DNA from: Candidatus Omnitrophota bacterium | Lineage (GTDB): Bacteria; Omnitrophota; Gorgyraeia; Gygaellales; Profunditerraquicolaceae | Assembly (NCBI GenBank): GCA_043800555.1 | Contig: JAZDMX010000017.1 | Coordinates: 4,068-68,067 of the forward strand | Reading direction: 5' to 3' | Length of the DNA: 64,000 nt | In this document: positions 2,740 through 52,083 of the stretch, piece after piece | Layout: every line of letters begins with the position of its first letter | Numbering within the stretch: position 1 is the first letter of the stretch | Position numbers and translations under genes: made by a program | The notes under the pieces: model-generated | Database searches by the model: none | What the model saw: only the letters and a program-made list of their open reading frames with translations | What the model was told of the DNA's origin: nothing

Positions 2740-2754
2740 CAGGAAAAGGGGGAT

Positions 2755-2900
2755 GTTTCTAAAAAAAGGGGACGCGGGAATTGGGGACGTTTCTACTTTT
2801 CCAGAGTTTAAAGCCGGAAAAGTAGAAACGTCCCCAATTCCCGTAGAAACGTCCCCCTTTTCGCAATTTCTAGAAAAGCGGAAACGTCCCTTTTTTTTCG
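2755..2900. repeat. Composite, nested copy of the palindromic REP-like element. It carries extra GGGGACG-cgggaatt units.
   Basis: Contains GGGGACGTTTCTACTTTTC ... GAAAAGTAGAAACGTCCCC plus mirrored flanks. Lies immediately upstream of the start of the giant repeat protein. Confidence 0.85.
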
Positions 2901-2940
2901 TATAATCCGTTATGTTTCCCATATTCTGCTATCGGCTAAA

Positions 2941-3522
2941 TCATTCCGCCCCAAACATAAACGCGGGTTCGTCGGGGATGGCTTCTTCGGAATTCTTAAA
3001 CGCCCCCCTTAAGGTAATTATTCCTCCGCCTCCTCCTAAAACTACTTCTCCGCCTTTCCTTATGTAAAGCGCCTTATCCGTAACATTATCCGGAGCAATC
3101 AATCCGTAAACGAAATTCTCGGCGGTAACCGTTGAATCCGTCCTCCCGCCGGCTGTAAGCGATTTCGCCTTAAAAACTTCAGACACTTTAGAGATAACTA
3201 CGCCGGCCCCCTGCTTGTCGACAACGGCATCATCCGATGAGCCGGGCACTCCTTTGGGGAACCAATTGCCGGCTTTATCCCAGCTTGCCGCGTCGGCCTT
3301 CCCCGACCACTGCTTCGTATCAGCCCGCGCGCCGCTACAAGAAAAAAATAGCACAAAAATGAATAAACTCAAGGAAAATATGAGAGAAAAGGGGGACGAA
3401 AAAAAGGGGGACGTTTCTACTTTTCTGGCGCTAGATTCGGGAAAAGTAGAAACGTCCCCTTTTTTCCCGTTCTCCTTTTCTCCGCTTCTCTTTTCTCTTG
3501 AGACATCCGCATTTTTCTTCAT
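2941..3522 (-). CDS. Secreted hypothetical protein. Its N-terminal region includes a translated REP-like element, followed by a hydrophobic signal-like segment.
   Basis: The 193-aa ORF has its ATG at 3522, overlapping the stop of the upstream gene in an ATGA arrangement. Hydrophobic stretch SLIFSLSLFIFVLFFSCSGARA. Confidence 0.5.
   Translation of the reverse strand: MKKNADVSREKRSGEKENGKKGDVSTFPESSARKVETSPFFSSPFSLIFSLSLFIFVLFFSCSGARADTKQWSGKADAASWDKAGNWFPKGVPGSSDDAVVDKQGAGVVISKVSEVFKAKSLTAGGRTDSTVTAENFVYGLIAPDNVTDKALYIRKGGEVVLGGGGGIITLRGAFKNSEEAIPDEPAFMFGAE
3387..3467. repeat. REP-like palindromic element, copy 2.
   Basis: GGGGGACG aaaaaaa GGGGGACGTTTCTACTTTTC tggcgctagattcgg GAAAAGTAGAAACGTCCCC with a T-run. 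Confidence 0.9.
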
Positions 3523-4832
3523 GGCCTGACAAATAGCGAAGCTCCGCCAATATCCATTTTCTTTACTTCCAAATAAACCTTGCCATCCAGAATTATTTCA
3601 CCCGAGACGTCATTAAAGCCATAATCATACAGGCCATTATACCCCAAACTCAAAAGGTTAAGGCCTAAATCAGCCGCCAGGCGCGGCCGGGCGGAAAAAA
3701 CTTTATTGCCCTCCGGGTATTCTATGGTATAAGTTTCAATAAGCGGCTGGGCCAAACCGGAAATCTTGGAAAATTGGACCTTAAGCACCCAGGAAGAGCC
3801 CCCGCTTTCGGGCTTTGCCTCCAGGATTAAAGAATCTTTATTATCAATACCGCTTAAATTGTCCAGATAGAGCGCCTTGACCTCCCTGGAATCCGGTATA
3901 GGGAACCTCGCCCCTTCCTTCAGCATAAGATTGCCCGAGCGCATCGGCGCGTTACGCAAAGCGACAAAAGTAATGCTTTGGCGCGTACTGCCGTTTTTGC
4001 TTTGCGCGGTAAAAGCGATTTCTATCGCCGTGATTACGGGTATATCGGAAGTTGCTATGGAGCCTTCCGAACCCAATTCGCTATTTGTATTGTCAAAATA
4101 ACGAAATTTAAAATCCGTGATTTTCACCCCGAAAGGATTTTTATAAACCTCTTTCGAACCGTCTTTATCGTCAATAAATACTGCTTGGGCAAGCGGGTCA
4201 TAGCGAAAAGTTACCAGGCAATCGGCGTCTTTTCCATAATCCGGATAAAAAGTAAAACGCAGGTGGCTGCCGGCAGGCACAGCCATATCCAGCTTGAATT
4301 GAGGGTAGTCTTCGGATTTTCCTTTATCGATGAAGGTGACCGGAACAACCTTGTATTCATTGGATTCGGGCAAAAGCGCCTCGGCAATCGGCAGGCTTGC
4401 GCCGGGTTTAATATGTTTATTTAAGGTATAGGTGTTGACCCCGGTATAGACGTCGTGAGTGTCGTCGGTCCAAGGCATAACCGTAACAACTTTTTCAGAA
4501 GTGCCGTCTACCACTTCCAGCGCGTCGCGAAGCCCGTAAGCGCCGGGAAGCCCTTCCACGAGTTCCTCCATAATCCGCGAAGAAGCCTGCTGCAAAAGAA
4601 GCTGATCCTGGGAAATGTCCCAACTTTCCAAGGCAGTCTTCAGGCTGAAATATAACGCGGCTGTGATTAAAGTGGAAATCGCTACGGCGATAACGAGTTC
4701 AATAAGAGTAAACCCCCTGGAAAAGGGGGACGTTCCCGCGGAAAAGGGGGACGTTTCTACTTTTCTGGCGCTAGATTCGGGAAAAGTAGAAACGTCCCCC
4801 TTTTTCAGCTCGCCTTTTCTTCTCATATCCAT
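3519..4832 (-). CDS. Large prepilin-type N-terminal cleavage/methylation domain protein. Possibly a minor pilin or tip-adhesin-like subunit.
   Basis: The motif SRG|FTLIELVIAVAISTLITAALYF is a class III signal with Glu+5. Total length 437 aa. A 40-aa leader includes the translated REP element. Confidence 0.6.
   Translation of the reverse strand: MDMRRKGELKKGDVSTFPESSARKVETSPFSAGTSPFSRGFTLIELVIAVAISTLITAALYFSLKTALESWDISQDQLLLQQASSRIMEELVEGLPGAYGLRDALEVVDGTSEKVVTVMPWTDDTHDVYTGVNTYTLNKHIKPGASLPIAEALLPESNEYKVVPVTFIDKGKSEDYPQFKLDMAVPAGSHLRFTFYPDYGKDADCLVTFRYDPLAQAVFIDDKDGSKEVYKNPFGVKITDFKFRYFDNTNSELGSEGSIATSDIPVITAIEIAFTAQSKNGSTRQSITFVALRNAPMRSGNLMLKEGARFPIPDSREVKALYLDNLSGIDNKDSLILEAKPESGGSSWVLKVQFSKISGLAQPLIETYTIEYPEGNKVFSARPRLAADLGLNLLSLGYNGLYDYGFNDVSGEIILDGKVYLEVKKMDIGGASLFVRP
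4712..4806. repeat. REP-like palindromic element, copy 3, with an extra partial left arm.
   Basis: GGGGGACGttcccgcggaaaaGGGGGACGTTTCTACTTTTC tggcgctagattcgg GAAAAGTAGAAACGTCCCCC. Confidence 0.9.
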
Positions 4833-5326
4833 ATACTGTCCTCGAACAAAGTAGCCACGGAAGCAACCGGCTTCTTAAGGTTATCGCTGCGGTAAACCTC
4901 CACCCTGACCTCCAAAGGGTCCGTATCGGCAAGAACGCGCCGCAAAACCCTCCACTTGGCCTGGTTCATTTCCAAAGGAGGCTCATCCAGTTTTGGCGTC
5001 CAGAGGTCGCCTATTTTTTTAAGGCCGGGCTTGGTAACATTCAAATTCTGGGTCCTTTCCATTTCCCAGCGCGCCAGGTTTACAGCGGTAATCTCTTCTC
5101 CTGAAACCGTAACGGAATAAAGAGCGCTTGAAAAAAGCTGTATCATCGGTATAAAGAGCACGGCGATAACGACAAGCGCGATGAGGATCTCGATAAAAGT
5201 AAATCCCCGGAAAAAAGGGGACGTTTCTACTTTTCCCGGATCTGGCGCCAGAAAAGTAGAAACGTCCCCTTTTTTCCGGGAAAAGTAGAAACGTCCCCCT
5301 TTTTCTTTTTCGATATCAAAACGCAT
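4823..5326 (-). CDS. Minor pseudopilin, GspI/J- or PilV-like, with a prepilin N-terminus.
   Basis: FRG|FTFIEILIALVVIAVLF. The leader contains a translated REP element. Confidence 0.6.
   Translation of the reverse strand: MRFDIEKEKGGRFYFSRKKGDVSTFLAPDPGKVETSPFFRGFTFIEILIALVVIAVLFIPMIQLFSSALYSVTVSGEEITAVNLARWEMERTQNLNVTKPGLKKIGDLWTPKLDEPPLEMNQAKWRVLRRVLADTDPLEVRVEVYRSDNLKKPVASVATLFEDSIWI
5211..5306. repeat. REP-like palindromic element, copy 4 (1.5 copies: one hairpin plus an extra right arm).
   Basis: GGGGACGTTTCTACTTTTC ccggatctggcgccag AAAAGTAGAAACGTCCCC ttttttccggg AAAAGTAGAAACGTCCCCC. Confidence 0.9.
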
Positions 5327-5720
5327 TATACCTCACTTGAACAGCGCGCTTGACGCCGTTACTGTTACCTATAGAAACTATTGTTGATTGCGAATAATCG
5401 TTATACACTTCAAAAACGCCTCCGTTTAATTTCGTGGGAGGGACTATCATATCAAGTTGTTCTTGTTCATCTACAGGCGCTTCCCCTGCCTGGTTCTTAA
5501 GAGCGCTGACTGCCTTGGCGATCCCGGCTTCGGCTAAATATAACGCTCTTGCCCTATCCAGCTCAATCTGGCTTAAGCTCAACACGTTAAAGAACAAAGC
5601 CATAAGGGTCGCCCCTAAAAGAGAAATCGTAAGGATCACAATCAGGACAATCAATAAAATTGCCCCTTTTTCGGCTTGCGGCTTGCGGCGTATGGTTAGC
5701 GCTAAGCGCTCCATTACCAT
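5316..5720 (-). CDS. GspK/PilX-like minor pseudopilin N-terminal domain protein.
   Basis: EKGAILLIVLIVILTISLLGATLMALF followed by ELDRARALYLAEAGI, resembling the GspK/PilX N-terminal helix. It has no Glu+5. Confidence 0.5.
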   Translation of the reverse strand: MVMERLALTIRRKPQAEKGAILLIVLIVILTISLLGATLMALFFNVLSLSQIELDRARALYLAEAGIAKAVSALKNQAGEAPVDEQEQLDMIVPPTKLNGGVFEVYNDYSQSTIVSIGNSNGVKRAVQVRYNAF

Positions 5721-6259
5721 TCAGAAGGCACCTCGCCTTTGTTTTTTCCCCACTTATCGCTCAAAGGCTCGGTTACATTCACTACCACCTTGGCTTTATC
5801 CGTATAATACGCCCAGCCTCCTGCGCCGGACAGATCCTCGTCGCTCTTAAGGTCTACAAAAGAATTGCTGCCTGCTTTGGAAGAAACCATCTCCAGGGGA
5901 AGTTTGGCTAAGTATGGCTGCTTAACGCCCATATCATCGTAGCTCCTGGTCAAGAGATCAGAAAGCGCCACGGGATATTCCCCTTCTTTGGCGCGGAACA
6001 TCGCGATGCGCGTGCGCAGCGTATTTAAATTGGTGAGTGTGGCCGAAACCTTTGCTTCCGTATCAAAACCAATGAAATTAGGAATAATAGTCGCTGCCAA
6101 TATCGCGATGATAGAAATAACAATTAGAAGCTCAAGCAAAGTGAAGCCCTTAGAAAAGGGGGACGTTTCTACTTTTCTGGCACGAGGCTTGCGAAAAGTA
6201 GAAACGTCCCCCTTTTCCGCGCCCCCTTTTTCCTTCCGGAAAGATAATGCTAACCTCAT
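5714..6259 (-). CDS. gspG: GspG/PulG-like major pseudopilin (type II secretion / type IV pilin-like).
   Basis: SKG|FTLLELLIVISIIAILAATIIPNF is a textbook GspG N-terminus. The 38-aa leader includes a translated REP element. Confidence 0.75.
   Translation of the reverse strand: MRLALSFRKEKGGAEKGDVSTFRKPRARKVETSPFSKGFTLLELLIVISIIAILAATIIPNFIGFDTEAKVSATLTNLNTLRTRIAMFRAKEGEYPVALSDLLTRSYDDMGVKQPYLAKLPLEMVSSKAGSNSFVDLKSDEDLSGAGGWAYYTDKAKVVVNVTEPLSDKWGKNKGEVPSEW
6153..6233. repeat. REP-like palindromic element, copy 5.
   Basis: GGGGGACGTTTCTACTTTTC tggcacgaggcttgc GAAAAGTAGAAACGTCCCCC. Confidence 0.9.
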
Positions 6260-6263
6260 TTTC

Positions 6264-7508
6264 CTACCTCCTGATAACGCTGATTAGATTAAAAATAGGC
6301 AATAAAACAGATAGGGCGATAAAAGCCACAATCGAACCCATTACCAAAAGCATTGCCGGCTCAAGCAGGCTGGTAAGGTTACGCACCGTAAATTCGATTT
6401 CCGGCTCATAAAAAGAGGCTATCTGGTCGAACATCTGGTCAAGCCTCCCTGTGCGCTCTCCCGTGTTAATCAACTGTATAACCATAGGCGGGAATAAACC
6501 CGACGCCTGGAAAGGCTCGGTTAAGCTTTGCCCTTGCGAAATAGCTAACCGGGTGTCTTTAATCATCTTTTGCAGGACAACATTAGGAATAGTATTCTCT
6601 ACCACCGAAAGCGCTTCTAACACCGGGACTCCGGATTTGGTAAGGGCGGCTATAGAACGCGATAAGCGGCTGGTTATGACCTTAAGGGTCAGCGGCCCAA
6701 ACAACGGAAGCCGCAGAAGCAAGAAATCAATGCGGTAGCGGCCCGCCGAAGTCCGGTAATAATTCCTTAAAGCGTTTAGGCCAATGATAGCTGCCAGGCC
6801 GATTAACCACCAGAAATTCCTTACGATATAGCTTAAAGAAAGCAGGGTTTTTGTAGGTAAGGGCAACTTGGCCGAAGAGGCTTCAAATATGGCAACGAAT
6901 TTAGGGAGGACCGCGACCAAAACAAAATTCACGATAACAAAAGCTACCAAGCCCAGCACTATAGGATAAACCAATGCCGAACGGATCCGGCTGCGCAGGT
7001 CAATCTCCTGCGTGCTTAATTCCGCCAGCCTGCTCAAGACCTTATCCAGCATGCCTCCGGCTTCCCCCACTTTGATTAAGCTTACATATAAATTCTCGAA
7101 GATACCGGGGTAGCGGGCAAGCGATTCCGAAAAACTCAATCCCTCCTCTAAAGAAGAAATAATATCTTTTATGACCGACTTAAACCTCGAATTTTGCGTC
7201 TGGCCTAAAACATTTTCCAGGCTTGTAATTAACGGGGCGCCGGTAGAAATAAGGGTGCTTAACTGTCGAGTAAATACAAGCAACTCCTGGCGCGAAACTC
7301 TTCTCACCCAGAAAGGGGAGGGCGTTTCCACTTTTCCCGAGCTTGGCGCCGAAAAAGTGGAAACGCCCTCCCCTTTTTCCGCTATGTCAACCGGGCTAAG
7401 GCCGAGTTTCTCTATTGACAAGGCTGCTTTTGTTTCGTCTTCGGCATCAATGACCCCTTGAGCCAAAGCGCCTTGGGCATCTCTTGCTTTATAGCTAAAG
7501 GTTGTCAT
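6264..7508 (-). CDS. pilC: Type II secretion system protein F / type IV pilus platform protein PilC. A 23-codon REP-like element is inserted in-frame.
   Basis: The N-terminus reads MTTFSYKARDAQGALAQGVIDAEDETKAALSIEKLGLSPV, then the insertion GEGVSTFSAPSSGKVETPSPF, then SRQELLVFTRQLSTLISTGAPL and three TM segments. Confidence 0.85.
   Translation of the reverse strand: MTTFSYKARDAQGALAQGVIDAEDETKAALSIEKLGLSPVDIAEKGEGVSTFSAPSSGKVETPSPFWVRRVSRQELLVFTRQLSTLISTGAPLITSLENVLGQTQNSRFKSVIKDIISSLEEGLSFSESLARYPGIFENLYVSLIKVGEAGGMLDKVLSRLAELSTQEIDLRSRIRSALVYPIVLGLVAFVIVNFVLVAVLPKFVAIFEASSAKLPLPTKTLLSLSYIVRNFWWLIGLAAIIGLNALRNYYRTSAGRYRIDFLLLRLPLFGPLTLKVITSRLSRSIAALTKSGVPVLEALSVVENTIPNVVLQKMIKDTRLAISQGQSLTEPFQASGLFPPMVIQLINTGERTGRLDQMFDQIASFYEPEIEFTVRNLTSLLEPAMLLVMGSIVAFIALSVLLPIFNLISVIRR
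7310..7380. repeat. Variant REP-like palindrome (subfamily) lying in-frame inside pilC.
   Basis: GGGGAGGGCGTTTCCACTTTT cccgagcttggcgccg AAAAAGTGGAAACGCCCTCCCC. The arms differ from the main family but remain perfectly complementary to each other. Confidence 0.8.
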
Positions 7509-9027
7509 AGCCCCAATACTCCTTCAACTTCTTTACCTTATCGTCATATATTTCCGTTTCTATGGATTTTTTTTGCGCTGCCTCTTTGGCCAGGCGTGAT
7601 TCTGCCCGGGCCTGCGCGCGGGCTTGTTCCTGGGCTTGCTGCGCCTTTTCTGCCCTATAAGCCTTAATCATTTCTCTCTCTAACTTAGCCCTTCGACGCG
7701 CTTCTTCCAGCAACGCCTGGTTGACAAGGCTCTTCTTATCCTCTTCCAGCGCTCCCTGCAAACGCTCTTTAAGGTCCTCGTCTTCCTGCAGCCGAAGCGC
7801 CTGGGAACTCTCTTCTTTTGTCAAATTCCTGATTTTGGCAAGTTCGGCCTCGGCCTTGCCGCGCGCTACTTTCCTTATGCGCGCGTTAACAGAGTTCCTC
7901 AATTCCACGGCCTTATCCGCGAATTCCGAATCCGGGTACTTTAATAATATCTTCGCGCACATCTCTTTGGCTAAATTCTGTTCGCCTAAATCGCTATATA
8001 AGGCTGCCGCCTGATAAGCGGACTCCGGCGCCTTTGGGCCGTCGGGAAACTGGGTAACGATACACTCATATATGCTTAAAGCCTGGTTCTTGCGCTGCCA
8101 ATCGTCTTTGTAAAAAGATTCTACGCCGGTGTTTTCCTGGAGGTTTTTAGCTTTTTCAAACAGCTTCGCCTGCACATTGAGGTCCGCCGTGCTCATAATG
8201 TTCACATAGGCTTCCTCTTCATAACGCGTCTTGTTTTCAGCGAGCATCTCCGCGCGCGAAAGCAGGATTTTGGGGGTAATGAAAACCGCCAGCTCCGTCT
8301 GGCTCTTATCGCTGCTTCTGCTGCTAAACAAATATTCTATACCCGGGATATAACCTAATATGGGGATGCGCGACCGCGTGCTGCTATCTTCTTGTTTGAT
8401 AAGCCCGCAGATTACAATAGTCTCGCCCTCTTTGACCCTTACAGTTGTGTCTGCTTCGCGCGTAGTAATGCGCGGCCCGGCGTCCAAAAGAGCGCTTACC
8501 GAAGAAACCTCCGGATGTATCGCCAGGGTAATATAACCATCGGCGTTAATAGACGGAGTTACCCGCAAAGTCGTCCCTACATCAATATATTTGGTGGTTT
8601 CAGTTGTGCCGGTAGTAGTCTGGGTCTTCTCCTTATACGGGACCTTCTCTCCGATAATAATGCGGGCCTCCCGGTTATTTAAAACCGCAATGGACGGAGA
8701 CGCCAATAAATGCGCTTTCTGGTCCTGGATTAAGGCGTCTATGGTAGCGGTAGCGGTCAAGCCGTTTAATACCAGGCTATCCAGCTTAAACTGCCCGCCG
8801 GAAAGGCTTGAGGATGTCCCGGCGAGAGTTTGAGTCATCTTAACAACTTTAGAAGAAGCCGATGGGCTCCAATCCGCGGTCCAGGTAACTCCCAGGTTCT
8901 TTAAATCTTTGGAGGTCATATCCACAATCTTGGCTTCAATAAGCACCTGCCGCGGCGGCTGGTCAACATCCTTAAGCAGCGCTTTTAATTTCTCGATACT
9001 GGCAGGATAATCGGTTACCACAAGCAT
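7495..9027 (-). CDS. pilQ: Secretin (GspD/PilQ family) C-terminal part. It contains the secretin domain plus an unusual ~260-aa TPR (YbgF-like) and charged coiled-coil C-terminal extension.
   Basis: PRQVLIEAKIVDM, ASPSIAVLNNREARIIIGEKVPY, SRIPILGYIPGIEYLF and TELAVFITPKIL. The frame stays open 27 codons upstream of the ATG, to a stop at 9103-9105. Confidence 0.75.
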   Translation of the reverse strand: MLVVTDYPASIEKLKALLKDVDQPPRQVLIEAKIVDMTSKDLKNLGVTWTADWSPSASSKVVKMTQTLAGTSSSLSGGQFKLDSLVLNGLTATATIDALIQDQKAHLLASPSIAVLNNREARIIIGEKVPYKEKTQTTTGTTETTKYIDVGTTLRVTPSINADGYITLAIHPEVSSVSALLDAGPRITTREADTTVRVKEGETIVICGLIKQEDSSTRSRIPILGYIPGIEYLFSSRSSDKSQTELAVFITPKILLSRAEMLAENKTRYEEEAYVNIMSTADLNVQAKLFEKAKNLQENTGVESFYKDDWQRKNQALSIYECIVTQFPDGPKAPESAYQAAALYSDLGEQNLAKEMCAKILLKYPDSEFADKAVELRNSVNARIRKVARGKAEAELAKIRNLTKEESSQALRLQEDEDLKERLQGALEEDKKSLVNQALLEEARRRAKLEREMIKAYRAEKAQQAQEQARAQARAESRLAKEAAQKKSIETEIYDDKVKKLKEYWGYDNL

Positions 9028-9047
9028 ATTGGCTACTTCATCAACTT

Positions 9048-9521
9048 TTATATCTCCCTTATTCGAGAGGACTTGCGCACAAGGTTCTGGGCGTCGGCAG
9101 CCTTAATGTATTTCAAGATTATAGGAACGGTGATGACTTGCGCGCCGTCAACTGAACCGGGCGAAATATAAAGCATATTGCCTTTACGGGAATAATTATA
9201 ACCATTGCCGGACAATATCGCCTCCAACGCCTCGCCTATCGATACGTCTTTTAAGGAAACGGTGATTTTTCCTTTAACATCGGAGGAAGTAACTAAGTTT
9301 AATCCGTAGGTATAACTTAGAGAACGCAGGACATCGGCGATATCGACATCTTTGTAATCCACGGAAATCATTTCTTTAAGAGGGTCGGATAGCGCTGCCT
9401 CTTTAGTCCCGGCTTCCGGGCTTATGCCCGCACCGGCAGCAGGCAACGGCGATCCTTGCGCCAAAGGCGCAATAGCCATGAATAGAAAGGACGCGCAAAT
9501 AAACGCTATTTTGTTTTTCAT
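9048..9521 (-). CDS. pilQ: Secretin N-terminal fragment: signal peptide plus N0/N1 domains. It is separated from the secretin body by a frameshift.
   Basis: MKNKIAFICASFLFMAIAPLAQG signal peptide. ISVDYKDVDIADVLRSLSYTYGLNLV is a secretin/TonB-N-terminus short (STN) domain. The fragment ends AQNLVRKSSRIREI*. Confidence 0.65.
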   Translation of the reverse strand: MKNKIAFICASFLFMAIAPLAQGSPLPAAGAGISPEAGTKEAALSDPLKEMISVDYKDVDIADVLRSLSYTYGLNLVTSSDVKGKITVSLKDVSIGEALEAILSGNGYNYSRKGNMLYISPGSVDGAQVITVPIILKYIKAADAQNLVRKSSRIREI

Positions 9522-9559: not shown

Positions 9560-10456
9560 TTATCTTTCGAGTTTCAATACTTCCTTTTCTGCCCCGCTAT
9601 TAATAACTACGGAATTAGGCAAAATTCTTTCTATCTTTGCCCAGTCAACCTGATCGCCTGCCTTAACTATCAGCCCGTTAATTATCGCAGTTGAGCTAGC
9701 CCCGCTCTCCCGATAGGCTATACCGGTGACCTTTAGTTTCTTTCTTTTGGTTTTATCCACAACAAATTTAGGCGTAAAAGGGCTGCGCTTAAGGACTCCG
9801 TCATCTGCTCCGGGCTCTTTGGCAGACAAAGATAACTGGCCGCGGTTATTTGAAGCGTAACTTAAAAGAGCGCTTAATCTTAAAGAAACGTTAATCGTCG
9901 AAAGCAAATCATTCTTGGACTGGCCCAGCCTCATTTCATCCATCCTGACAAACGGCGAAATAGACTCTATCCTCTTTATATAGGTAACCGCTTTGCCATA
10001 ATCAGAAGAGAACTCCAAATCTATATAAAGCCTGCCAAACCCTTCTTTATCTTCTTTGACATCTTCTTTAACGGATTCCAGGTCCACGCCCAGGCTTTGA
10101 GCGTTCTTTATAACCTCGGCCAATAGATACTGTTCCTGGGAAGCGCCGATTAGCTTTGATTCAATATCGGAAATATGCAACTTTAACTCTTTAATCTCCC
10201 GCCTTATTGCTTCTATCTCCTGGCTGGCTGTAGCCGAAGAAGGAAGCTGGGAATCAAGAAGCCCAAGCTGATTTTGATTCTCCTGCAGTTTTTTTCTCAT
10301 CTTGCTGATATCGTTTAAGGCCGGCTTTAAAAACAAGGCGAAATAAAATGAAGCGGCCAGCACAAAAACAAAAATGAGGAAAAGCCGCTGTTCACCCTTC
10401 TTCAATTTGCCATACCAATTGTTATAGATCACCGCTAGCTGCTTGATAAGCATCAT
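9560..10456 (-). CDS. PilO-like coiled-coil protein fused to a C-terminal PilP-like domain.
   Basis: N-terminal TM segment, a coiled coil, and a C-terminal LKVTGIAYRESGASSTAIINGLIVKAGDQVDWAKIERILPNSVVIN that is PilP-like. Confidence 0.55.
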   Translation of the reverse strand: MMLIKQLAVIYNNWYGKLKKGEQRLFLIFVFVLAASFYFALFLKPALNDISKMRKKLQENQNQLGLLDSQLPSSATASQEIEAIRREIKELKLHISDIESKLIGASQEQYLLAEVIKNAQSLGVDLESVKEDVKEDKEGFGRLYIDLEFSSDYGKAVTYIKRIESISPFVRMDEMRLGQSKNDLLSTINVSLRLSALLSYASNNRGQLSLSAKEPGADDGVLKRSPFTPKFVVDKTKRKKLKVTGIAYRESGASSTAIINGLIVKAGDQVDWAKIERILPNSVVINSGAEKEVLKLER

Positions 10457-11097
10457 TCTTTGGCCTTTTTCGCTGCGCCCAAAGGCGACTTTTTTTGATT
10501 CCAGCCGGGTTCGGTAACAATCTGAAAATTATAAATAACGTGTGAATCTATAACCTGCTTTTCCGTAGAAACAAACCGGGTATTCCTAAAATCCTTGCAG
10601 CCGTCAAGCTTATTCATGAAATCGGCGATCAATTGGCTGTTAATCGTTGACCCGGATACCTGGATTTCATTATCATTCATTATAAGGCGGTTTATCCATA
10701 AATCCTGCGGCAGGAGCCCCGCGATAGAGGCAAGCAGCCCGCAATAGCCCCCGCTTCTTGCCACGGTAGAAGACAACAAGTCCAGGCGTTGTTTAAATAG
10801 CGCCTCTTCTTTGATTAAGCCGGATTTTAACTTCTCGGCTTGAAAATCCCGGGTTTGCAATTTCTTAAATTTAGTTTTTGTATCTTCTATCGCCTGTTTT
10901 GTTAAGCCGATGTTAAGCCTATAGCTATTTACCATAAACGCGGGGCCGGCAATTAATAAAAAAATTGGCAAAAACCCAAAAACGATAAGCCTGCTTAACC
11001 GCCTCTTTTTCCCGCCAAGGGCTTTAAACATTTTAGATAACGGCCTATTAAGGGCGTTTTTGGAAATAAGGTTAACCGGCTTTAATTTCAAAATCAA
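10453..11097 (-). CDS. pilN: PilN-like pilus assembly protein.
   Basis: Single TM segment RLIVFGFLPIFLLIAGPAF followed by a coiled coil. Positioned between pilM and the pilO-like gene. Confidence 0.6.
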   Translation of the reverse strand: MILKLKPVNLISKNALNRPLSKMFKALGGKKRRLSRLIVFGFLPIFLLIAGPAFMVNSYRLNIGLTKQAIEDTKTKFKKLQTRDFQAEKLKSGLIKEEALFKQRLDLLSSTVARSGGYCGLLASIAGLLPQDLWINRLIMNDNEIQVSGSTINSQLIADFMNKLDGCKDFRNTRFVSTEKQVIDSHVIYNFQIVTEPGWNQKKSPLGAAKKAKE

Positions 11098-12160
11098 TAC
11101 CTCCGTTTATAAATTTTGTTGCCAGCCCTAAAGCCCCGGTAAAGGCTATAGAATTCTGCTGGACAACCGGGTTCAACCCGTTCTCGGAGTGAGAAACAAA
11201 AAAAGCCAAAGGATCAAAGACATTAACCGGGATTTCCAATTTGTCAGCCAGGAATTTATCCAGGTTTTTCAATGCCGCCGCCCCGCCGCACAAAATAAGG
11301 CGCTCGATTTCCGGCGCTTTAGATTTTACAAATTTATGGGAGAAATCTTTAATCGCGTGCTCAATATCAATAAGCATATTTTCCATCTGGCTGGAAAGCG
11401 CCGGGCACTCACCCAGGCCTTCCTCTATCTTTAAGGCTTCTGCCTTTTCCCAATCAAACTGATAGTATCCGGCCAAGATTCCGGTAAAACCGTTACCCGA
11501 GGCACCTAACGGCGTTATAAGATAGGGATGGCCCCCGGATACAATAATTATCGAGGAATTGCTTGCTCCTATTCGCAGCACCAAAACAGTTTCCTTTTCT
11601 GATATATTTTTAGATAAAGACAGGGCTTCAATAACTGCGTAAGGCTGGGGCTCAATAGAAACTAAATCTAAGGATAAGCCCTTAAAGAACTTGGCCATAT
11701 CCAAAACTGTTTTCTTGCTAGTTACAAATACTAAAACATAAATATCCTTATTCCCGGCCTCCTGGGGGCTGGCGCAAACATAATCAAACGATATATCATC
11801 AAATTTTACTCCCGGAGGAAGGTTCTGTTTGATTTTCCAGGTAAGGGCGGGTTCAACTTCGCCTGCGGGCATATCCGGCAAGGTATAGCTATAGGTGTTA
11901 ATCCCGCTCAACGGGATCGAAACCGCTACTTCCCCTTTGACCCGATTCTCTTTTACAAGTTTCTCCAAAGAATCTTCCGGGATAATGGAGACAGGGACGC
12001 CTTTATCGCGCCCAAGGCTGGCATAGTCAGCTTTTAGGATTTTATAACTGGATTTGAATTTGGCTAATTGCAATAGCTTAAGCGAACTTGAACCTATTTC
12101 TATTGCAGTAGGGAAATACTCCGGCTTTAATCGCAACACTCTAACCTCCTTTACGGGCAA
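11072..12160 (-). CDS. pilM: Type IV pilus assembly ATPase-fold protein PilM (actin-like).
   Basis: VLRIGASNSSIIIVSGGHPYLITPLGASG and ERLILCGGAAALKNLDKFLADKLEIPVNVFDPLAFF. Confidence 0.8.
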   Translation of the reverse strand: MPVKEVRVLRLKPEYFPTAIEIGSSSLKLLQLAKFKSSYKILKADYASLGRDKGVPVSIIPEDSLEKLVKENRVKGEVAVSIPLSGINTYSYTLPDMPAGEVEPALTWKIKQNLPPGVKFDDISFDYVCASPQEAGNKDIYVLVFVTSKKTVLDMAKFFKGLSLDLVSIEPQPYAVIEALSLSKNISEKETVLVLRIGASNSSIIIVSGGHPYLITPLGASGNGFTGILAGYYQFDWEKAEALKIEEGLGECPALSSQMENMLIDIEHAIKDFSHKFVKSKAPEIERLILCGGAAALKNLDKFLADKLEIPVNVFDPLAFFVSHSENGLNPVVQQNSIAFTGALGLATKFINGGIDFEIKAG

Positions 12161-12187: not shown

Positions 12188-12406
12188 TTATAAGTGCTGC
12201 GCAATAAGCTTGAGAGAATAACCCTCCTGGCGAAGTTTTCTTATCTTGGAAAAACTTTTGAGAATACCTGATCTGCTATACAACCTCATATTGCCTTTTC
12301 TTCCCTCGGCCCGGAACAGCCCTATGTTAGTGTAATAATTGACTGTGGCCATAGAGATCCCCAACAGGGAAGCGATCTCCTTTGGTGACAAATACTTTCC
12401 ACTCAT
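12188..12406 (-). CDS. Small MerR/excisionase-like helix-turn-helix DNA-binding protein.
   Basis: LSPKEIASLLGISMATVNYYTNIGLF is an HTH. A strong Shine-Dalgarno sequence AAGGAGG precedes the ATG. Confidence 0.5.
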   Translation of the reverse strand: MSGKYLSPKEIASLLGISMATVNYYTNIGLFRAEGRKGNMRLYSRSGILKSFSKIRKLRQEGYSLKLIAQHL

Positions 12407-12530: not shown

Positions 12531-12620
12531 CCCGGAAAAAGGGGGACGTTTCTACTTTTCCGGCGCCAGATCCGGGAAAAGTAGAAACGTCCCCCTTTTT
12601 CCAGGCCCCTTTTTTAACCC
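12531..12620. repeat. REP-like palindromic element, copy 7, immediately 3' of the RAYT gene.
   Basis: GGGGGACGTTTCTACTTTTC cggcgccagatccgg GAAAAGTAGAAACGTCCCCC. Confidence 0.9.
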
Positions 12621-13282
12621 CTCGGCCTTCCTATTTTTTTGTTAAAGTTATTTATTTGATAGAACTCTGATAACCCGCGGACAAACGCCTCGCTGCCGAT
12701 GAAAAACTGTTTAGAAATAACCTCTGAATTCACTATGCTGCTATCTACTACAAATTCTATATATAGTTTCGCTCTAGCCTGGAGAGAGCCGGAAAGGCTG
12801 CAATACGCCGGGCTATCGGAAATTACGGCATTTGGCAAACCAAGCGCATAATAACAGTAGCTGCTGAAGCGATACCTTTCAGGCGCTTTAACCAGCCCGG
12901 ACCTTACCGGATTAAGCTCAATATACTTCCCGCATTGCAAAAGATACGAATCGGTATCAATAATATTGCTTTTATACCTGCCCTGCCAGATATGCCCGCT
13001 GTAACCATAAGTCCTTTTGTAATAATTAAAATATAAGAGATTGAGTTGTTTCATAAACTTGGGCAAGTTACTTGTAGCATCCAGCCAAACAATCAAATGG
13101 CTATGGTTACTCATGATACAATAGTGGAATATACTGATATTATTCTCTTTTCTAAGGTTTTTTAGCAGTTCCCAATAGGCATGCTTGTCTTCATCGCACC
13201 TAAAGATACACTGCTGGTTATTTCCTCTAGTCATAATATGCAAAGCCCCATTCCGGGGGATAAGCCTTCTTGTCCTGGGCAT
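12614..13282 (-). CDS. REP-associated tyrosine transposase (RAYT; IS200/IS605 TnpA-like Y1 HuH transposase).
   Basis: HuH motif CIMSNHSHLIV and catalytic-Tyr motif YIELNPVRSGLV, the RAYT signature Y..NPV.AGLV. AGGAGG Shine-Dalgarno sequence upstream. REP copies flank it on both sides. Confidence 0.8.
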   Translation of the reverse strand: MPRTRRLIPRNGALHIMTRGNNQQCIFRCDEDKHAYWELLKNLRKENNISIFHYCIMSNHSHLIVWLDATSNLPKFMKQLNLLYFNYYKRTYGYSGHIWQGRYKSNIIDTDSYLLQCGKYIELNPVRSGLVKAPERYRFSSYCYYALGLPNAVISDSPAYCSLSGSLQARAKLYIEFVVDSSIVNSEVISKQFFIGSEAFVRGLSEFYQINNFNKKIGRPRG

Positions 13283-13764: not shown

Positions 13765-15435
13765 TTATCCTTCATGGGTAACCCGCAGGACCTCGGAAAC
13801 ACTGGTAATCCCTTTAAGCAGCTTATCGATACCGTCTTCATACATTGTCTTCATTCCTTTGCGGATGGCAGCATCCCTAATTTCTCCGGCGGAAGACTTT
13901 TTCTCAATCAATCTCTTAATGTCGTCATCCGGCACGAGCATTTCAAAAATCCCTATCCTCCCCGAGTATCCGGAATTCCGGCACTCCTGGCAACCCTTTT
14001 CCCGGTAGAACCTGATAGGGCCGGGCCCTGCCTTGACACTCAACTCATCCAACAACTCCTTGGCGGGAGAATAGGCTTCTTTGCAGCGCGGGCATAATAC
14101 CCTCAACAGGCGCTGCGCGACCACGCAGATTAACGCCGAAGAAACCAAAAACGGCTCGGTCTCCATATCGATTAACCTGGTGGCTGCCGAAGGCGCATCA
14201 TTAGTATGAAGAGTGGAAAAAACCAAATGCCCGGTTAAAGCCGCATGGATGGCAATCTCGGCAGTTTCGTGGTCACGCACCTCGCCAATCATAATTACGT
14301 CGGGGTCCTGCCGGACAAGAGAACGCAGGCCCACGGCAAAAGTAAGGCCGGCCTTGACATTTACCTGCGACTGGCGCACCCGGTCGATCTCATATTCAAT
14401 CGGATCTTCCATGGTAACTATGTTTTGCTCGGTGCTATTAATATCAAGCATAACGGCATAAAGAGTGGTGCTTTTGCCGGAGCCGGTCGGCCCGGTAACC
14501 AAAATAATCCCGTGCGGCTTACGGATTATCTCCTTGAATGCCTCCAATGCCCCATCCGGCATCCCTAAATCTTTCAGCCGGATAAGCGAGCGAGTCTTAT
14601 CCAAAATCCTGATAACCAGGTTTTCGCCATACATCGTAGGAAAGGTTGAAACGCGCAAATCAACGCTCCTTCCCGCCGCAACTGTCTGAATGCGCCCATC
14701 CTGCGGAAGCCGTTTCTCTGAAATATCCATATTAGACATTATCTTGATCCGGGAAATTATTGCCGCTTCGTATCTTTTGGCAAGTTTTGGCATGTCATGA
14801 AGGACCCCGTCCATCCTGAAACGGCAATAAAAATCTTCTTTTTCGGGCTCAAGGTGTATGTCGCTTGCCCCCAATTCAACCGCCTTGGCGATTAAATTAT
14901 CCACAATGCTTACCACCGGAGCAAGGCTGGCAATCTGCACGGAATCCATACCCGTCAAATTGACAACTTCCGCCTCTTTATCCTGCCCCGCCTTAAGCGC
15001 GGAAAAACTTTCTTTACGGTATTCCCTGTTAATATTATCGAAAACTTGCGACGGCCGGGCAAAAACCAGGCGCACCGGCTCCTTAATCGCTTTGCGGATT
15101 TCATCTGTAGATTTTTCATCCAAAGGGCTGGCCAAAGCCACTGTAACAGCGGTAGCGCTCTTAAAAATCGGCAATGCCGAATATTTCCTGATTATCTCTT
15201 CGGGCAACAGCCTAATGACCGCCGGCTCTAACTTGTATCTTGACAGGTCCACGCAGGCAAAACCCAGCTGTTCGCTTAACGCCAGAGTTACCTGCTCCTC
15301 GTTAGCGTAGCCTTTTTTGATCAGGATCTCGCTTAAGCTCCTGCCGGAACTCTCTTGCTCTGCCAAAGCTTCATCAAGCTGGCTGCTTGTGGTGATATTT
15401 TTGGTAACTAATAATTCGCCCATCCTTTTCGTCAT
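13765..15435 (-). CDS. pilB: Type IV pilus / type II secretion assembly ATPase of the GspE/PilB family.
   Basis: N-terminal GspE_N-like domain. Walker A motif GPTGSGKSTT, and a C-terminal tetracysteine CPRC...CQEC. Confidence 0.9.
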   Translation of the reverse strand: MTKRMGELLVTKNITTSSQLDEALAEQESSGRSLSEILIKKGYANEEQVTLALSEQLGFACVDLSRYKLEPAVIRLLPEEIIRKYSALPIFKSATAVTVALASPLDEKSTDEIRKAIKEPVRLVFARPSQVFDNINREYRKESFSALKAGQDKEAEVVNLTGMDSVQIASLAPVVSIVDNLIAKAVELGASDIHLEPEKEDFYCRFRMDGVLHDMPKLAKRYEAAIISRIKIMSNMDISEKRLPQDGRIQTVAAGRSVDLRVSTFPTMYGENLVIRILDKTRSLIRLKDLGMPDGALEAFKEIIRKPHGIILVTGPTGSGKSTTLYAVMLDINSTEQNIVTMEDPIEYEIDRVRQSQVNVKAGLTFAVGLRSLVRQDPDVIMIGEVRDHETAEIAIHAALTGHLVFSTLHTNDAPSAATRLIDMETEPFLVSSALICVVAQRLLRVLCPRCKEAYSPAKELLDELSVKAGPGPIRFYREKGCQECRNSGYSGRIGIFEMLVPDDDIKRLIEKKSSAGEIRDAAIRKGMKTMYEDGIDKLLKGITSVSEVLRVTHEG

Positions 15436-15533: not shown

Positions 15534-17879
15534 CTATTTATTCTTCAATTCTCTCCACATAAGCTGATTAATGCCTGTCTTACCTGCCCTGCCAAAAGTG
15601 ATTGCCCCTTTTCTGGTTTTTATCTTATACGATGACGACACCAGGATAGTAACCGTTTCCGCCTCTGAATCGGTTACGGAAAGCGTGATCTTTCCATTGG
15701 TGAATCTGGCGGAAGTAGCTGCCAGCGAAGCGCTGCCGTTATCCGAATCCTCAACCGCCTCTACATTTACCGTCAGGCCGCTCTCCGAAGTAATGACGTT
15801 GCCTTCATCATCCACTATCTGGATAGTGACCTCGCCGGTCCCGACAGGCGAGGTAGTGTCAATTACTTCGATAGTGGCGTTTTTCACCGTAATTTTGGAC
15901 GACTCAACGCTCAAAGAGCCTTTTTGAGACTGGGCAACCACGGTATAACTGCCTGCCTGAGCTGGAACAGCTGAAAATGTATGCGCGCCCGCATCTGCGC
16001 CGGTAAAAGTGTACGGCCCCGGCAGGGCCAATCCAATACCCGAGGACAATTCAACAGCTCCGGGGTAATTCGGTATGGGTCCCCCCAGCGCGTCTAAAAC
16101 TTTCACCACCATCTCAATCGGCTCGCCGATATAGAAGAAATCTCGCTCACTGTTGGCGGGAATTACGCTGATTGACATACTCTTGGGTAAAAATACGATG
16201 TCGGGGCTAATCCCGGATTTTGCCGGATCAACCGAATCTTCGGCCTTAAGTTTTATCGTGCCGTAAAGATTATAAGATACATCTGCTTTGGCAATTCCGC
16301 TAAGGAAACTGCTTGCCGCTATCACGGAAGGAGAAAACGATGCCTTAGGAATACTAAGAGGCGTAACCGCTAACGGCAATAAATTAACAGCGCTATTATA
16401 ATTCGGGGTTATTAAGCCCGCGGCATTTAAAGCGGTAACGCTAACCTTAAATGGATTTGAAACAATTTGCGGGCTCTCGGCCGAAACAATAAAGCTTGCC
16501 GGCAGGAATAAAATCTGGCTGCTTGCGCCTGTTTGATCCGAATCTTCGCTATCGGTTGCCGTAATCGTAACCAGGCCGCAATCAGGATATTTCGCCGTGG
16601 TAACCTTAAGGACGCCCTTGACGAAACCCGACACGTTATCAGGCAATATGGGAAAACTACCCTTAGCCGGAGAAATATAATCTAGCGACAGGTTCACGGC
16701 GCCGCCGTAAGATTCATCGGTATTGGCCTTCTCATCCTTGGCGGTAATTATTATATCAAAACTTTGGCCGGCGACCTGCGGCGTAGCGGCTTCAACGGCA
16801 AAACGCGCAAACTTATTCACTATCTCAAATTCCTGCAGGGCGTCGAGATAACCCCGGTCCGGATACTCCCTTACGTTAATTACGGGCCTGCCGGAAGCGG
16901 TATCTTTATAATAAAAGGTTACCTGTTGGGCTGATTTCGGAATAATAATCTGCTCTTGGCTTACCCAGGGGTCCTTATTCAGAGAAAAACTTCCGCTAGT
17001 GGAAGTAGATTTTAGCTCTAAAGTTATATCTGTCGCCGCTGTCTGGGGCGCGGAATCGGAATCCTGCAGTTGAAGGACAATCGGCCCCGAAACCTGGCCC
17101 TGCATTAACTTCTGGGGCGCGCTAATTATCTGCAAACGGTAAATGTAGCTGACTTCTATATCGTCGACATAAGCATTACTCTGCCCGGAAGCCGAATAAG
17201 TGCCGTAAAACTTAAGGTCGCTTAAAGAATTTATGGTATTATCGATAAATCCCAGGTTGGTTTCCAGCGGGCTAAACCCTATATCCGAATTGGGATCGAC
17301 AAAATAAAGATCGTAGGTATGGTTAATGAAATCGAGTTTCATGGACACATCGTACCACTGCCCGGTTACATAGGTAGCTCCGGTATCCACCCAGGAGGAG
17401 CCGTCAGCAACCAGGACATTGCCGGTGAAATCAAAACAAACAGCCCCGACTCCGGATGAGGGCACGCTGGGGGTTTGATTGGAAATCGAAGGACGGATTT
17501 TAAAACGAATCCAGGTAGGCGTATGCCCGCCATATGCAAAAGGCCGGTCCACCACGGGAACGTTGAGCGCCCCAATGAGCTCCACTGAATTGCCTGTTCC
17601 GCCGGGAGTTACTTTAGACTGCGCGATCGCGTTATTTTCCGAACCGCTAAAAACATTCCAGTAATCTGTGCCGTCAATGGTTGCCCCGTCGATAAAATTG
17701 CTGAAATCCTGGAAATATGTGTCAAGGGTAGCTGACTGCGGCAAGCCGCAAAAAGCCTCCGGCGCCCCGCATATTAAGAAAAATATAATAAGTATTGCGC
17801 GGGATAAAAAAAAGGGGGACGTTTCTACTTTTCTGGAAGCTAAAGCCGGAAAAGTAGAAACGTCCCCCTTTTTTCTCAT
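15534..17879 (-). CDS. Large secreted surface protein with a lectin/LamG-like N-terminal region and Ig-like repeats. Its N-terminus is encoded by a REP element, followed by a signal peptide.
   Basis: The 781-aa protein starts MRKKGDVSTF...KVETSPFF, the REP translation, followed by LSRAILIIFFLICGAPEAFC. The sequence is rich in T/S/V/G beta-strand repeats. Confidence 0.55.
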   Translation of the reverse strand: MRKKGDVSTFPALASRKVETSPFFLSRAILIIFFLICGAPEAFCGLPQSATLDTYFQDFSNFIDGATIDGTDYWNVFSGSENNAIAQSKVTPGGTGNSVELIGALNVPVVDRPFAYGGHTPTWIRFKIRPSISNQTPSVPSSGVGAVCFDFTGNVLVADGSSWVDTGATYVTGQWYDVSMKLDFINHTYDLYFVDPNSDIGFSPLETNLGFIDNTINSLSDLKFYGTYSASGQSNAYVDDIEVSYIYRLQIISAPQKLMQGQVSGPIVLQLQDSDSAPQTAATDITLELKSTSTSGSFSLNKDPWVSQEQIIIPKSAQQVTFYYKDTASGRPVINVREYPDRGYLDALQEFEIVNKFARFAVEAATPQVAGQSFDIIITAKDEKANTDESYGGAVNLSLDYISPAKGSFPILPDNVSGFVKGVLKVTTAKYPDCGLVTITATDSEDSDQTGASSQILFLPASFIVSAESPQIVSNPFKVSVTALNAAGLITPNYNSAVNLLPLAVTPLSIPKASFSPSVIAASSFLSGIAKADVSYNLYGTIKLKAEDSVDPAKSGISPDIVFLPKSMSISVIPANSERDFFYIGEPIEMVVKVLDALGGPIPNYPGAVELSSGIGLALPGPYTFTGADAGAHTFSAVPAQAGSYTVVAQSQKGSLSVESSKITVKNATIEVIDTTSPVGTGEVTIQIVDDEGNVITSESGLTVNVEAVEDSDNGSASLAATSARFTNGKITLSVTDSEAETVTILVSSSYKIKTRKGAITFGRAGKTGINQLMWRELKNK
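17806..17876. repeat. REP-like palindromic element, copy 11. It overlaps the start of the 15534..17879 gene.
   Basis: GGGGGACGTTTCTACTTTTC tggaagctaaagccg GAAAAGTAGAAACGTCCCCC. Confidence 0.9.
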
Positions 17880-45676: not shown

Positions 45677-45715
45677 CTCGTCCTCCTTTTTCCGCCAATT
45701 TGACGATATGCCCCC

Positions 45716-52069: not shown

Positions 52070-52083
52070 CGGTTCGTTTATGG

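What the first reader, a model, noticed from the sequence alone, without database searches (positions are those of the whole stretch)
9028..9105. Secretin gene split by a frameshift between the N0/N1 domains and the secretin domain
ORF 9048..9521 encodes a signal peptide and secretin N-domains and ends RKSSRIREI*. In the -1 frame the sequence reads QVLSNKGDIKVDEVAN and continues directly into MLVVTDYPASIEKL... of ORF 7495..9027. Any single-nucleotide indel within 9051-9102 restores a ~680-aa secretin. No homopolymer is present at the site. The cause could be a genuine pseudogene, a programmed frameshift or an assembly error.
Basis: seen in the sequence. Interest (0 to 1): 0.5.

Follow-up and report, generated by a model that had tools for sequence, protein, structure and literature searches.

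The report
Pilus secretin gene, one base missing
A type IV pilus outer-membrane channel (secretin) gene in an uncultured Omnitrophota genome is cut in two by a single missing G; this is an ordinary frameshift, either an assembly error or a very recent knockout, and not a programmed or novel feature.

Summary
Minus-strand ORFs 9048..9521 (157 aa) and 7495..9027 (510 aa) are two pieces of one PilQ-type secretin gene. DNA and protein alignments with orthologues place the lesion exactly. One G is missing between window positions 9072 and 9071: the window reads CGC AAG TCC where orthologues read CGY AAR GTN (…LVRK|VLSNKGD…). Adding that base back gives a 675-aa secretin that is colinear with 15 of 15 aligned orthologues.

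The break lies inside the N1 (Secretin_N) domain, not between domains. Only a 1-nt insertion restores the frame, not any indel. Of the 119 other best database hits, 117 have Secretin_N and Secretin in one protein.

I found no slippery heptamer, no stimulatory RNA structure and no conservation of the shift, so programmed frameshifting is rejected. The downstream piece has no signal peptide and no well-placed Shine-Dalgarno sequence, so the record as written encodes a dead secretin inside an otherwise intact pilMNO-pilQ-pilC-pilin operon.

A second clean 1-nt deletion splits a GH1 beta-glucosidase at about 52090..52095. No independent assembly of this population could be found, and reads are not available. 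My split is about 55% consensus or assembly error and about 38% genuine recent null allele. Interest is low.

The parts
7495..9521 (-). The whole pilQ-type secretin gene. Adding one G gives a 675-aa protein with a signal peptide, STN/N0, N1 (Secretin_N), a secretin pore domain, a YbgF/TPR-like segment and a K/E/A-rich tail.
   Evidence: Pfam and NCBIfam scans of the repaired protein; alignment A1 with 15 orthologues; tblastn. The best solved relatives are type IV pilus PilQ structures 4av2, 9sh1, 3jc8 and 6ve2.
9048..9521 (-). ORF A (157 aa): Sec-type signal peptide (MKNKIAFICASFLFMAIAPLAQG), STN/N0 domain, first third of N1, then 7 out-of-frame residues (SSRIREI) and TAA.
   Evidence: STN 45.8 bits, GspD N0 28 bits. 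NCBI CDS MFH0855794.1.
9071..9072 (-). Site of the lesion. One G is missing between Lys150 (AAG, 9074..9072) and the Val151 codon (window AAG|TCC, orthologues AAG/AAA GTN). On the + strand this is CC->C.
   Evidence: DNA alignment A2 shows one 1-nt gap in the window only. The protein alignment reads LVRK-VLSNKGD in all orthologues. The tblastn HSPs abut at 9072/9075.
9051..9102 (-). Stretch where both reading frames are open. It contains no X_XXY_YYZ heptamer and no run longer than 3 nt.
7495..9027 (-). ORF B as annotated (510 aa, NCBI 'hypothetical protein V1869_04730'): the rest of N1, the secretin domain (aa 98-255), a TPR/YbgF-like region and a charged tail. It has no signal peptide. The only Shine-Dalgarno-like AAGGGAG lies about 28 nt upstream of the ATG.
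9560..12160 (-). Intact upstream operon genes: pilM (11072..12160), pilN (10453..11097) and pilO (9560..10456).
   Evidence: Pfam PilM_2 2-337/340, PilN and PilO. Same gene order as in L011.
3519..7508 (-). Intact downstream operon genes: pilC/T2SSF (6264..7508) and four pilin-like genes (5714..6259, 5316..5720, 4823..5326, 3519..4832).
   Evidence: Pfam T2SSF x2 and N_methyl; synteny with L011.
51320..52611 (-). The second frameshifted gene in the window. It is not part of the secretin but bears on its cause. A GH1 beta-glucosidase is split into 175-aa and 249-aa ORFs by a 1-nt deletion at 52090..52095 (CC TTTT GGG).
   Evidence: Pfam PF00232 profile positions 4-152 and 285-449 fall in two ORFs. 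The repaired 405-aa protein aligns over residues 2-401 with PDB 1vff and has no gap at the junction.

Best explanation
This is one pilQ-type type IV pilus secretin gene in which the deposited sequence lacks a single G (AAGGTC -> AAGTC, between window positions 9072 and 9071). The shift is not programmed.

Read literally, translation gives two products. The first is a 157-aa exported N-terminal stub (signal peptide, N0, one third of N1). The second, at best, is a 510-aa cytoplasmic remainder with no signal peptide, which cannot reach the outer membrane. So no secretin channel would form.

I think the missing base is most probably a consensus or assembly indel in this metagenome-assembled genome, and the organism really has an intact 675-aa PilQ.

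Shown: the single-gene ancestry, the exact lesion, and the absence of recoding signals. Inferred: the origin of the lesion (error rather than mutation).
For: Single gene and exact lesion:
- Pfam Secretin_N is only recovered when the two frames are joined.
- 15 of 15 orthologues read ...AQNL[VL]RK[VAI][LI]S.KGD... through the junction.
- The DNA alignment has one 1-nt gap, in the window only.
- The tblastn HSPs abut at residue 150.

Pointing to an artefact or a very fresh event:
- There is no second lesion. The window sequence keeps more than 200 columns that are invariant across the 16 sequences.
- All operon neighbours are intact.
- Type-4a pili are near-universal in Omnitrophota and are thought to be needed for host attachment (PMC10066038), so a majority null allele would be unexpected.
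- A second equally clean 1-nt deletion breaks a GH1 gene 43 kb away. That makes 2 breaks in 64 kb, or about 30 per Mbp.
- Spurious frameshift pseudogenes from assembly are well documented and depend on coverage (PMC11017572).
- From my own knowledge, not tested here: metagenome assemblers typically leave a few indels per 100 kb.
Against: No reads, coverage figures or independent assembly of this population were available, so error and mutation cannot be told apart directly.

The lesion is GG->G, not in a long homopolymer. Meanwhile 128 runs of 6 nt or more are present in the window, including a T8 at 7567..7574 inside secretin ORF B, whose frame is unbroken. No frame break other than the two described was found in the roughly 55 ORFs scanned by Pfam. 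So the pattern does not carry the signature of homopolymer-length-dependent sequencing error.

Real spontaneous deletions look the same, and pilQ null alleles are a classic outcome of selection by pilus-specific phages (my own knowledge). With only two events, the estimated rate is very uncertain.
Confidence: 0.55

Rival explanations
1. This is a genuine, recent loss-of-function mutation. The sampled Omnitrophota population, or its majority strain, really carries a 1-nt deletion in pilQ and makes no secretin. It therefore has no surface type IV pili from this operon. The gene is a very young pseudogene.
For: - The sequence as deposited says so, and NCBI annotated two CDS.
- The lesion is not at an error-prone long homopolymer, while 128 runs of 6 nt or more show no sign of a break. 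This argues against a generally indel-prone consensus.
- A second inactivated gene (GH1) would fit ongoing gene loss in a lineage proposed to be host-dependent with a reduced genome (PMC10066038).
- Another Omnitrophota MAG contig (L012) also has a truncated secretin, cut at a different position.
Against: - Apart from the one base, the gene is pristine and the whole operon is intact, so the mutation would have to be extremely recent.
- All but two of the 119 other top homologues are intact across the junction.
- T4aP is retained in nearly all Omnitrophota, which implies strong purifying selection.
- Two 'fresh' single-base deletions with no older, multiply-hit pseudogenes in about 55 scanned ORFs is an odd age distribution for real decay.
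Confidence: 0.38
2. This is a programmed -1 ribosomal frameshift (or transcriptional slippage). The full-length secretin would be made by recoding at CGC-AAG-T, with ORF A as the default product.
For: A -1 slip immediately after Lys150 (AAG) would recreate exactly the orthologous sequence RK-VLSN.
Against: - There is no X_XXY_YYZ heptamer anywhere in the 52-nt overlap.
- There is no A/T run for transcriptional slippage.
- The downstream and surrounding RNA folds no better than shuffled sequence (z = -0.29 and +0.19).
- No Shine-Dalgarno-like stimulator lies at a suitable distance upstream.
- The shift is absent from all five orthologous loci aligned at the DNA level and from 117 of 119 homologues. 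Genuine recoding sites are conserved in position across relatives (PMC3711429).
- A structural 12-15-mer channel protein has no evident need for a truncated N-terminal isoform.
Confidence: 0.02
3. This is a naturally split, two-gene secretin. The N0/N1 piece and the pore piece would be separate functional proteins that assemble together.
For: Both ORFs are long and begin with ATG. The ATG of ORF B lies 21 nt after the stop of ORF A, which would allow termination-reinitiation.
Against: - The cut runs through the middle of the N1 fold rather than through a linker.
- ORF B has no signal peptide, so it could not leave the cytoplasm.
- ORF A ends in 7 out-of-frame residues.
- No orthologue is organised this way.
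- The 15 residues VLSNKGDIKVDEVAN, conserved in all orthologues, would be untranslated.
Confidence: 0.01

Closest known systems
Type IV pilus secretin PilQ (Neisseria 4av2/9sh1, Myxococcus 3jc8, Pseudomonas 6ve2). The Omnitrophota PilQ orthologues P0002-P0020 are the nearest relatives.
   Same: - The repaired protein has a signal peptide, STN/N0, N1 (Secretin_N) and a C-terminal Secretin pore domain.
- The best PDB hits are PilQ (E = 8e-39 to 7e-35).
- TIGR02515 IV_pilus_PilQ scores 242 bits.
- It sits in a pilM-pilN-pilO-pilQ-pilC-pilin operon next to a PilB/MshE ATPase.
- It is 78% identical to P0002.
   Different: - As deposited, the reading frame is broken by one missing base.
- NCBIfam scores stay below the curated cut-offs (242 vs 284 bits for PilQ; 245 vs 351 for GspD).
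- This Omnitrophota clade carries an extra C-terminal YbgF/TPR-like segment and a K/E/A-rich tail of very variable length (proteins of 482-1102 aa) that classical PilQ lacks.
- No AMIN domains were detected.
Frameshift 'pseudogenes' in genome assemblies, genuine or spurious (Cooley & Wright 2024, PMC11017572; GeneTack singletons, Antonov et al. 2013, PMC3711429)
   Same: A single-base indel splits an otherwise intact, conserved gene into two adjacent ORFs in different frames. It has no recoding motif and is not conserved in relatives. That is the profile of a singleton frame transition caused by mutation or sequencing error.
   Different: Nothing distinguishes it. The only particular point is that the affected gene is the sole outer-membrane component of an otherwise intact pilus operon.
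Programmed -1 ribosomal frameshifting (dnaX, IS transposases)
   Same: Two overlapping ORFs lie in the 0 and -1 frames, and their fusion gives the full-length protein.
   Different: There is no slippery heptamer, no stimulatory hairpin or pseudoknot, no upstream Shine-Dalgarno sequence and no conservation among orthologues.

Membership tests
Secretin superfamily (PilQ/GspD type) | C-terminal Secretin pore domain (PF00263) | tested here: met
   171.6 bits, profile positions 1-168/169, in ORF B.
Secretin superfamily (PilQ/GspD type) | Periplasmic N0 (STN/GspD_N0) and at least one N1 (Secretin_N, PF03958) domain on the same polypeptide, preceded by a signal peptide | tested here: inconclusive
   Met only after adding one base. 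Then STN scores 41.6 bits and Secretin_N 48.1 bits (aa 136-192), and the N-terminus MKNKIAFICASFLFMAIAPLAQG is present. As deposited, N1 is cut in two and the pore half has no signal peptide.
Type IV pilus secretin PilQ (as opposed to T2SS GspD or T3SS SctC) | Encoded in a pilMNO(P)Q cluster with a pilus ATPase, a platform protein and pilins | tested here: met
   PilM_2, PilN, PilO, T2SSF, N_methyl pilins and T2SSE+MshEN ATPase are adjacent. The syntenic locus L011 has the same order.
Type IV pilus secretin PilQ (as opposed to T2SS GspD or T3SS SctC) | Reaches the curated NCBIfam TIGR02515 score | tested here: not met
   242.4 bits against a cut-off of 284.35 for the repaired protein. GspD TIGR02517 scores 244.8 against 351.35. 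The best solved homologues are nevertheless PilQ. It is a divergent Omnitrophota branch.
Programmed -1 ribosomal frameshift site | Slippery heptamer X_XXY_YYZ in the 0 frame within the overlap | tested here: not met
   None of the heptamers in 9051..9111 qualifies.
Programmed -1 ribosomal frameshift site | Stimulatory downstream RNA structure or upstream Shine-Dalgarno-like element | tested here: not met
   MFE -17.9 and -19.3 kcal/mol, z = -0.29 and +0.19 against shuffles. No Shine-Dalgarno-like sequence precedes 9074.
Programmed -1 ribosomal frameshift site | Frameshift position conserved among orthologues | tested here: not met
   All five orthologous DNA loci and 15 of 15 aligned proteins are in one frame.
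Phase-variable contingency locus | Indel lies in a long homopolymer or short tandem repeat | tested here: not met
   The lesion is GG->G, and no run longer than 3 nt occurs in the overlap.
Old (decayed) pseudogene | Multiple disabling lesions or loss of conserved residues | tested here: not met
   There is one gap in the DNA alignment. The window retains every column that is invariant in the 16-sequence alignment, and no further stops occur over 675 codons.

The most novel reading that the evidence does not exclude
The deletion is real. A natural Omnitrophota population would then carry a majority pilQ-null allele, plus a GH1-null allele, in an otherwise intact type IV pilus operon. That would be a very recent loss of surface piliation, for example under pressure from pilus-specific phage or a change in host-attachment lifestyle, caught in a lineage where T4aP is almost universal.
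Probability: 0.38. Interest if true: 0.25.

Novelty: already known. Interest (0 to 1): 0.1.

Why it matters
It matters mostly for annotation. The two NCBI CDS (MFH0855794.1 and the 'hypothetical protein' MFH0855793.1) should be treated as one frameshifted pilQ. Gene-content tables for this MAG should neither score PilQ as absent nor count two proteins.

If reads confirm the deletion, this would be a fresh natural pilQ knockout in a phylum where type-4a pili are thought to mediate host attachment. That would be mildly interesting for population genetics but is not a new mechanism.

The second clean frameshift in the same 64 kb is a warning about the indel quality of this assembly.

Tried and rejected
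1. Searching for an independent copy of the same population, to see whether the G is present. All of these came back empty:
- The exact junction pattern, with or without one extra base, in GTDB genome contigs and JGI metagenome contigs.
- Exact-protein look-ups of ORF A, ORF B/P0001, PilO and PilC.
- A short junction-spanning protein query against the 5.8-billion-protein database. Nothing above 67% identity appeared except the window's own ORF A. That search also seemed to return only short proteins.
The nearest relative is 78% identical (P0002).

2. Programmed frameshift: heptamer scan and two RNA folds, all negative.

3. Phase variation: no repeat tract at the site.

4. A paralogous secretin in the window that might compensate: tblastn with three orthologues hit only this locus.

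5. Other suspicious same-strand overlapping ORF pairs turned out to be distinct complete genes with over-extended TTG or GTG starts. These were FtsH/unknown at 27879-30384, LipA/LipB at 33706-35272, HycI/MazG at 48054-49291, and enolase/DivIC at 26037-27614.

6. P0112, a 674-aa homologue with the Secretin domain only, is truncated at a different position (about aa 247), next to an unrelated gene on a 4.4-kb contig. It is not a recurrence of this frameshift.

7. Homopolymer census, to test a long-read-type error signature: not supported.

8. Structure prediction was not run. The Pfam, PDB and orthologue alignments already place the break.

Full report
**Observation.** On the minus strand, ORF A (9048..9521, 157 aa) ends ...KAADAQNLVRKSSRIREI*. 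ORF B (7495..9027, 510 aa) starts MLVVTDYPASIEKL.... Translating the -1 frame upstream of ORF B gives GCRRPEPCAQVLSNKGDIKVDEVAN with no stop back to 9102. The third frame is full of stops. However, only adding one base (or removing two) joins them; removing one base does not.

**What the two ORFs are.**
- ORF A carries a Sec-type signal peptide and the STN/GspD-N0 domain (45.8 and 28 bits).
- ORF B carries the Secretin pore domain (171.6 bits).
- The Secretin_N (N1) domain is not detected in ORF A and is sub-threshold in ORF B (17.2 bits, profile positions 44-69 only).
- Joining the frames recovers Secretin_N at 48.1 bits over residues 136-192. The break is therefore inside N1, not between N0/N1 and the pore domain.
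- NCBIfam ranks PilQ (TIGR02515, 242 bits) and GspD (245 bits) on top, both below their curated cut-offs.
- The best solved relatives are type IV pilus PilQ proteins: 4av2, 9sh1, 3jc8 and 6ve2.

**Source organism and annotation.** ORF B is identical to NCBI MFH0855793.1, 'hypothetical protein V1869_04730', from a Candidatus Omnitrophota MAG contig of 115,498 bp. ORF A is the adjacent MFH0855794.1. The depositor's annotation therefore calls two CDS.

**Orthologues.** A search with the joined protein returned 1475 hits. Among the 119 listed proteins other than the window's own, 117 have Secretin_N and Secretin on one polypeptide. The two exceptions are P0105, which is cut by a contig end, and P0112, which is truncated about 100 residues further downstream next to an unrelated gene on a 4.4-kb contig.

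In a 16-sequence alignment, every orthologue reads ...KA.[DE][AS]QN[LF][LVI]RK[VAI][LI]S.KGD[IM]KVD... through the junction. The window's frame A supplies ...AQNLVRK and frame B supplies VLSNKGDIKVDE. tblastn of P0002 against the window gives residues 2-150 in frame -3 ending at 9072, and residues 150-663 in frame -2 from 9075.

A nucleotide alignment with five orthologous loci shows a single 1-nt gap, in the window only. The window reads CGCAA-GTCCTCTCGAAT against CGTAAGGTCCTCTCGAAT in the closest locus. The lesion is therefore one missing G between 9072 and 9071, GG->G on the coding strand. The repaired protein is 675 aa.

**Context.** The gene lies in a conserved operon:
- PilB/MshE ATPase (13765..15435)
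- A Y1-transposase-like gene (12614..13282)
- A MerR-type HTH gene (12188..12406)
- pilM, pilN and pilO
- The secretin
- pilC
- Four pilin-like genes

The closest relative's contig (L011, JGI, 78% identical secretin) has the same order with one intact 1102-aa secretin. All neighbours in the window give full-length domain matches. No second secretin is present in the window.

**Consequences as written.** ORF B has no signal peptide. It also has no Shine-Dalgarno sequence at a working distance: AAGGGAG lies about 28 nt upstream, whereas pilC and the pilin gene have GAAGGAG or GAGGTAGG 3-10 nt upstream. Even if ORF B were reinitiated 21 nt after the ORF A stop, the pore half would stay in the cytoplasm. 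This is inferred from the sequence and from the established Sec-dependent export of secretins. The record as written therefore encodes a null allele.

**Programmed frameshift.** A -1 slip right after Lys150 would give the orthologous sequence, but the evidence is against it:
- No X_XXY_YYZ heptamer occurs in the overlap.
- There is no homopolymer for transcriptional slippage.
- RNA around and downstream of the site folds no better than shuffles (z = -0.29 and +0.19).
- The arrangement is not conserved in any relative, whereas genuine recoding sites form conserved clusters (PMC3711429).

I put this at about 2%. A naturally split secretin is about 1%: the cut goes through a domain, the second half has no export signal, and 15 conserved residues would go untranslated.

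**Error or mutation?** I looked for independent sequence of the same population and found none. As a proxy for assembly quality, I scanned about 55 ORFs of the window with Pfam.

All are full-length except one, a GH1 beta-glucosidase split into ORFs 52084..52611 and 51320..52069. The cause is again a 1-nt deletion, at 52090..52095 (CC TTTT GGG TAA). The joined 405-aa protein aligns over residues 2-401 with PDB 1vff and has no gap at the junction. It keeps the NEP and ENG catalytic motifs.

So the window holds two 'clean' single-base deletions, about 30 per Mbp, and shows no older, multiply-damaged pseudogenes.

*Favouring an artefact:*
- Both genes are otherwise pristine.
- The pilus operon is intact, and T4aP is nearly universal in the phylum (PMC10066038).
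- The density is high for real frameshifts.
- Assembly-derived frameshift pseudogenes are well documented (PMC11017572).

*Favouring a real mutation:*
- The secretin lesion is at a GG, not a long run.
- The window contains 128 homopolymers of 6 nt or more. These include a T8 inside secretin ORF B, an A8 in the first GH1 ORF and a C6G6 in a hydrogenase gene, none of which interrupts its ORF's frame. No frame break beyond the two described was seen in the ORFs scanned. There is therefore no homopolymer-length-driven error signature.

My estimate is about 55% consensus or assembly error, about 38% genuine very recent null allele, and about 3% anything else. Read pile-ups at 9040..9110 and 52080..52100 would settle it.

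**Verdict.** The feature is an ordinary, non-programmed frameshift of a known kind and is of low interest, beyond correcting the annotation and flagging the assembly's indel quality.

Noticed in passing
window 51320..52611 (-), lesion at 52090..52095: A second frameshifted gene. A GH1 beta-glucosidase is split into 175-aa and 249-aa ORFs by a 1-nt deletion in CC-TTTT-GGG. The repaired 405-aa protein is colinear with PDB 1vff and keeps its catalytic motifs.
   Followed up: yes
window, about 16 copies, e.g. 2783-2835, 3407-3459, 4747-4799, 5217-5298, 6159-6211, 12542-12594, 13388-13440, 15469-15522, 17815-17867, 21901-21953, 27742-27795, 33020-33073, 44005-44056, 52757-52809: A REP-like perfect palindrome, GGGGACGTTTCTACTTTTC-(N15)-GAAAAGTAGAAACGTCCCC, gives 33 arm matches against 0.02 expected. 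Two copies flank the IS200/Y1_Tnp-like gene 12614..13282, which is the classic REP/RAYT arrangement.
   Followed up: partly
window 6153-6217 in ORF 5714..6259; 5206-5305 in ORF 4823..5326; 4742-4804 in ORF 3519..4832; 7312-7376 in pilC 6264..7508: The palindromic element sits in-frame inside coding sequence. It lengthens prepilin leader peptides to about 37 aa (M..EKGDVSTF..RKVETSPFSKG|FTLLE), whereas the L011 orthologue has the short leader MRFNSKS|FTLLE. A diverged copy encodes a linker in PilC (KGEGVSTF...GKVETPSPF) that is also present in the 78%-related L011 PilC but absent from L012. From my own knowledge, this is reminiscent of Rickettsia palindromic elements inserted in protein-coding genes.
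   Followed up: partly
window 7495..8250 (-) and orthologues P0002-P0016: This Omnitrophota PilQ clade has a C-terminal extension after the pore domain. It consists of a YbgF/CpoB/TPR_6-like segment (TIGR02795 about 28-29 bits, sub-threshold) followed by a K/E/A/R/Q-rich repetitive tail of very variable length. Total protein length ranges from 482 to 1102 aa, and the tail in the window is among the shorter of the long-tailed forms.
   Followed up: no
window 45768..45849 (-): A c-di-GMP-I-GGC riboswitch (RF03167, 62.3 bits, above the gathering score) lies just upstream of ORF 45224..45724. That ORF is 166 aa, has a signal-peptide-like N-terminus and has no Pfam family.
   Followed up: no
L012 (JBGGHJ010008408.1) 1..2775: Another Omnitrophota MAG contig carries a secretin that starts only at the equivalent of residue ~247 (MDTLILKGL...). 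It lies directly next to an opposite-strand PD-(D/E)XK/LigB-like gene. This is a truncation by rearrangement or a chimeric contig, at a different site from the window's frameshift.
   Followed up: partly
window 1..2928 (-): An open frame of more than 976 codons runs off the left end of the window, so it was not listed by the ORF tool. It again has REP-derived GDVSTF/KVETSP peptides at its N-terminal end. The DUF6701/Big_1 protein at 15534..17879 also has a REP copy at its 5' end.
   Followed up: no
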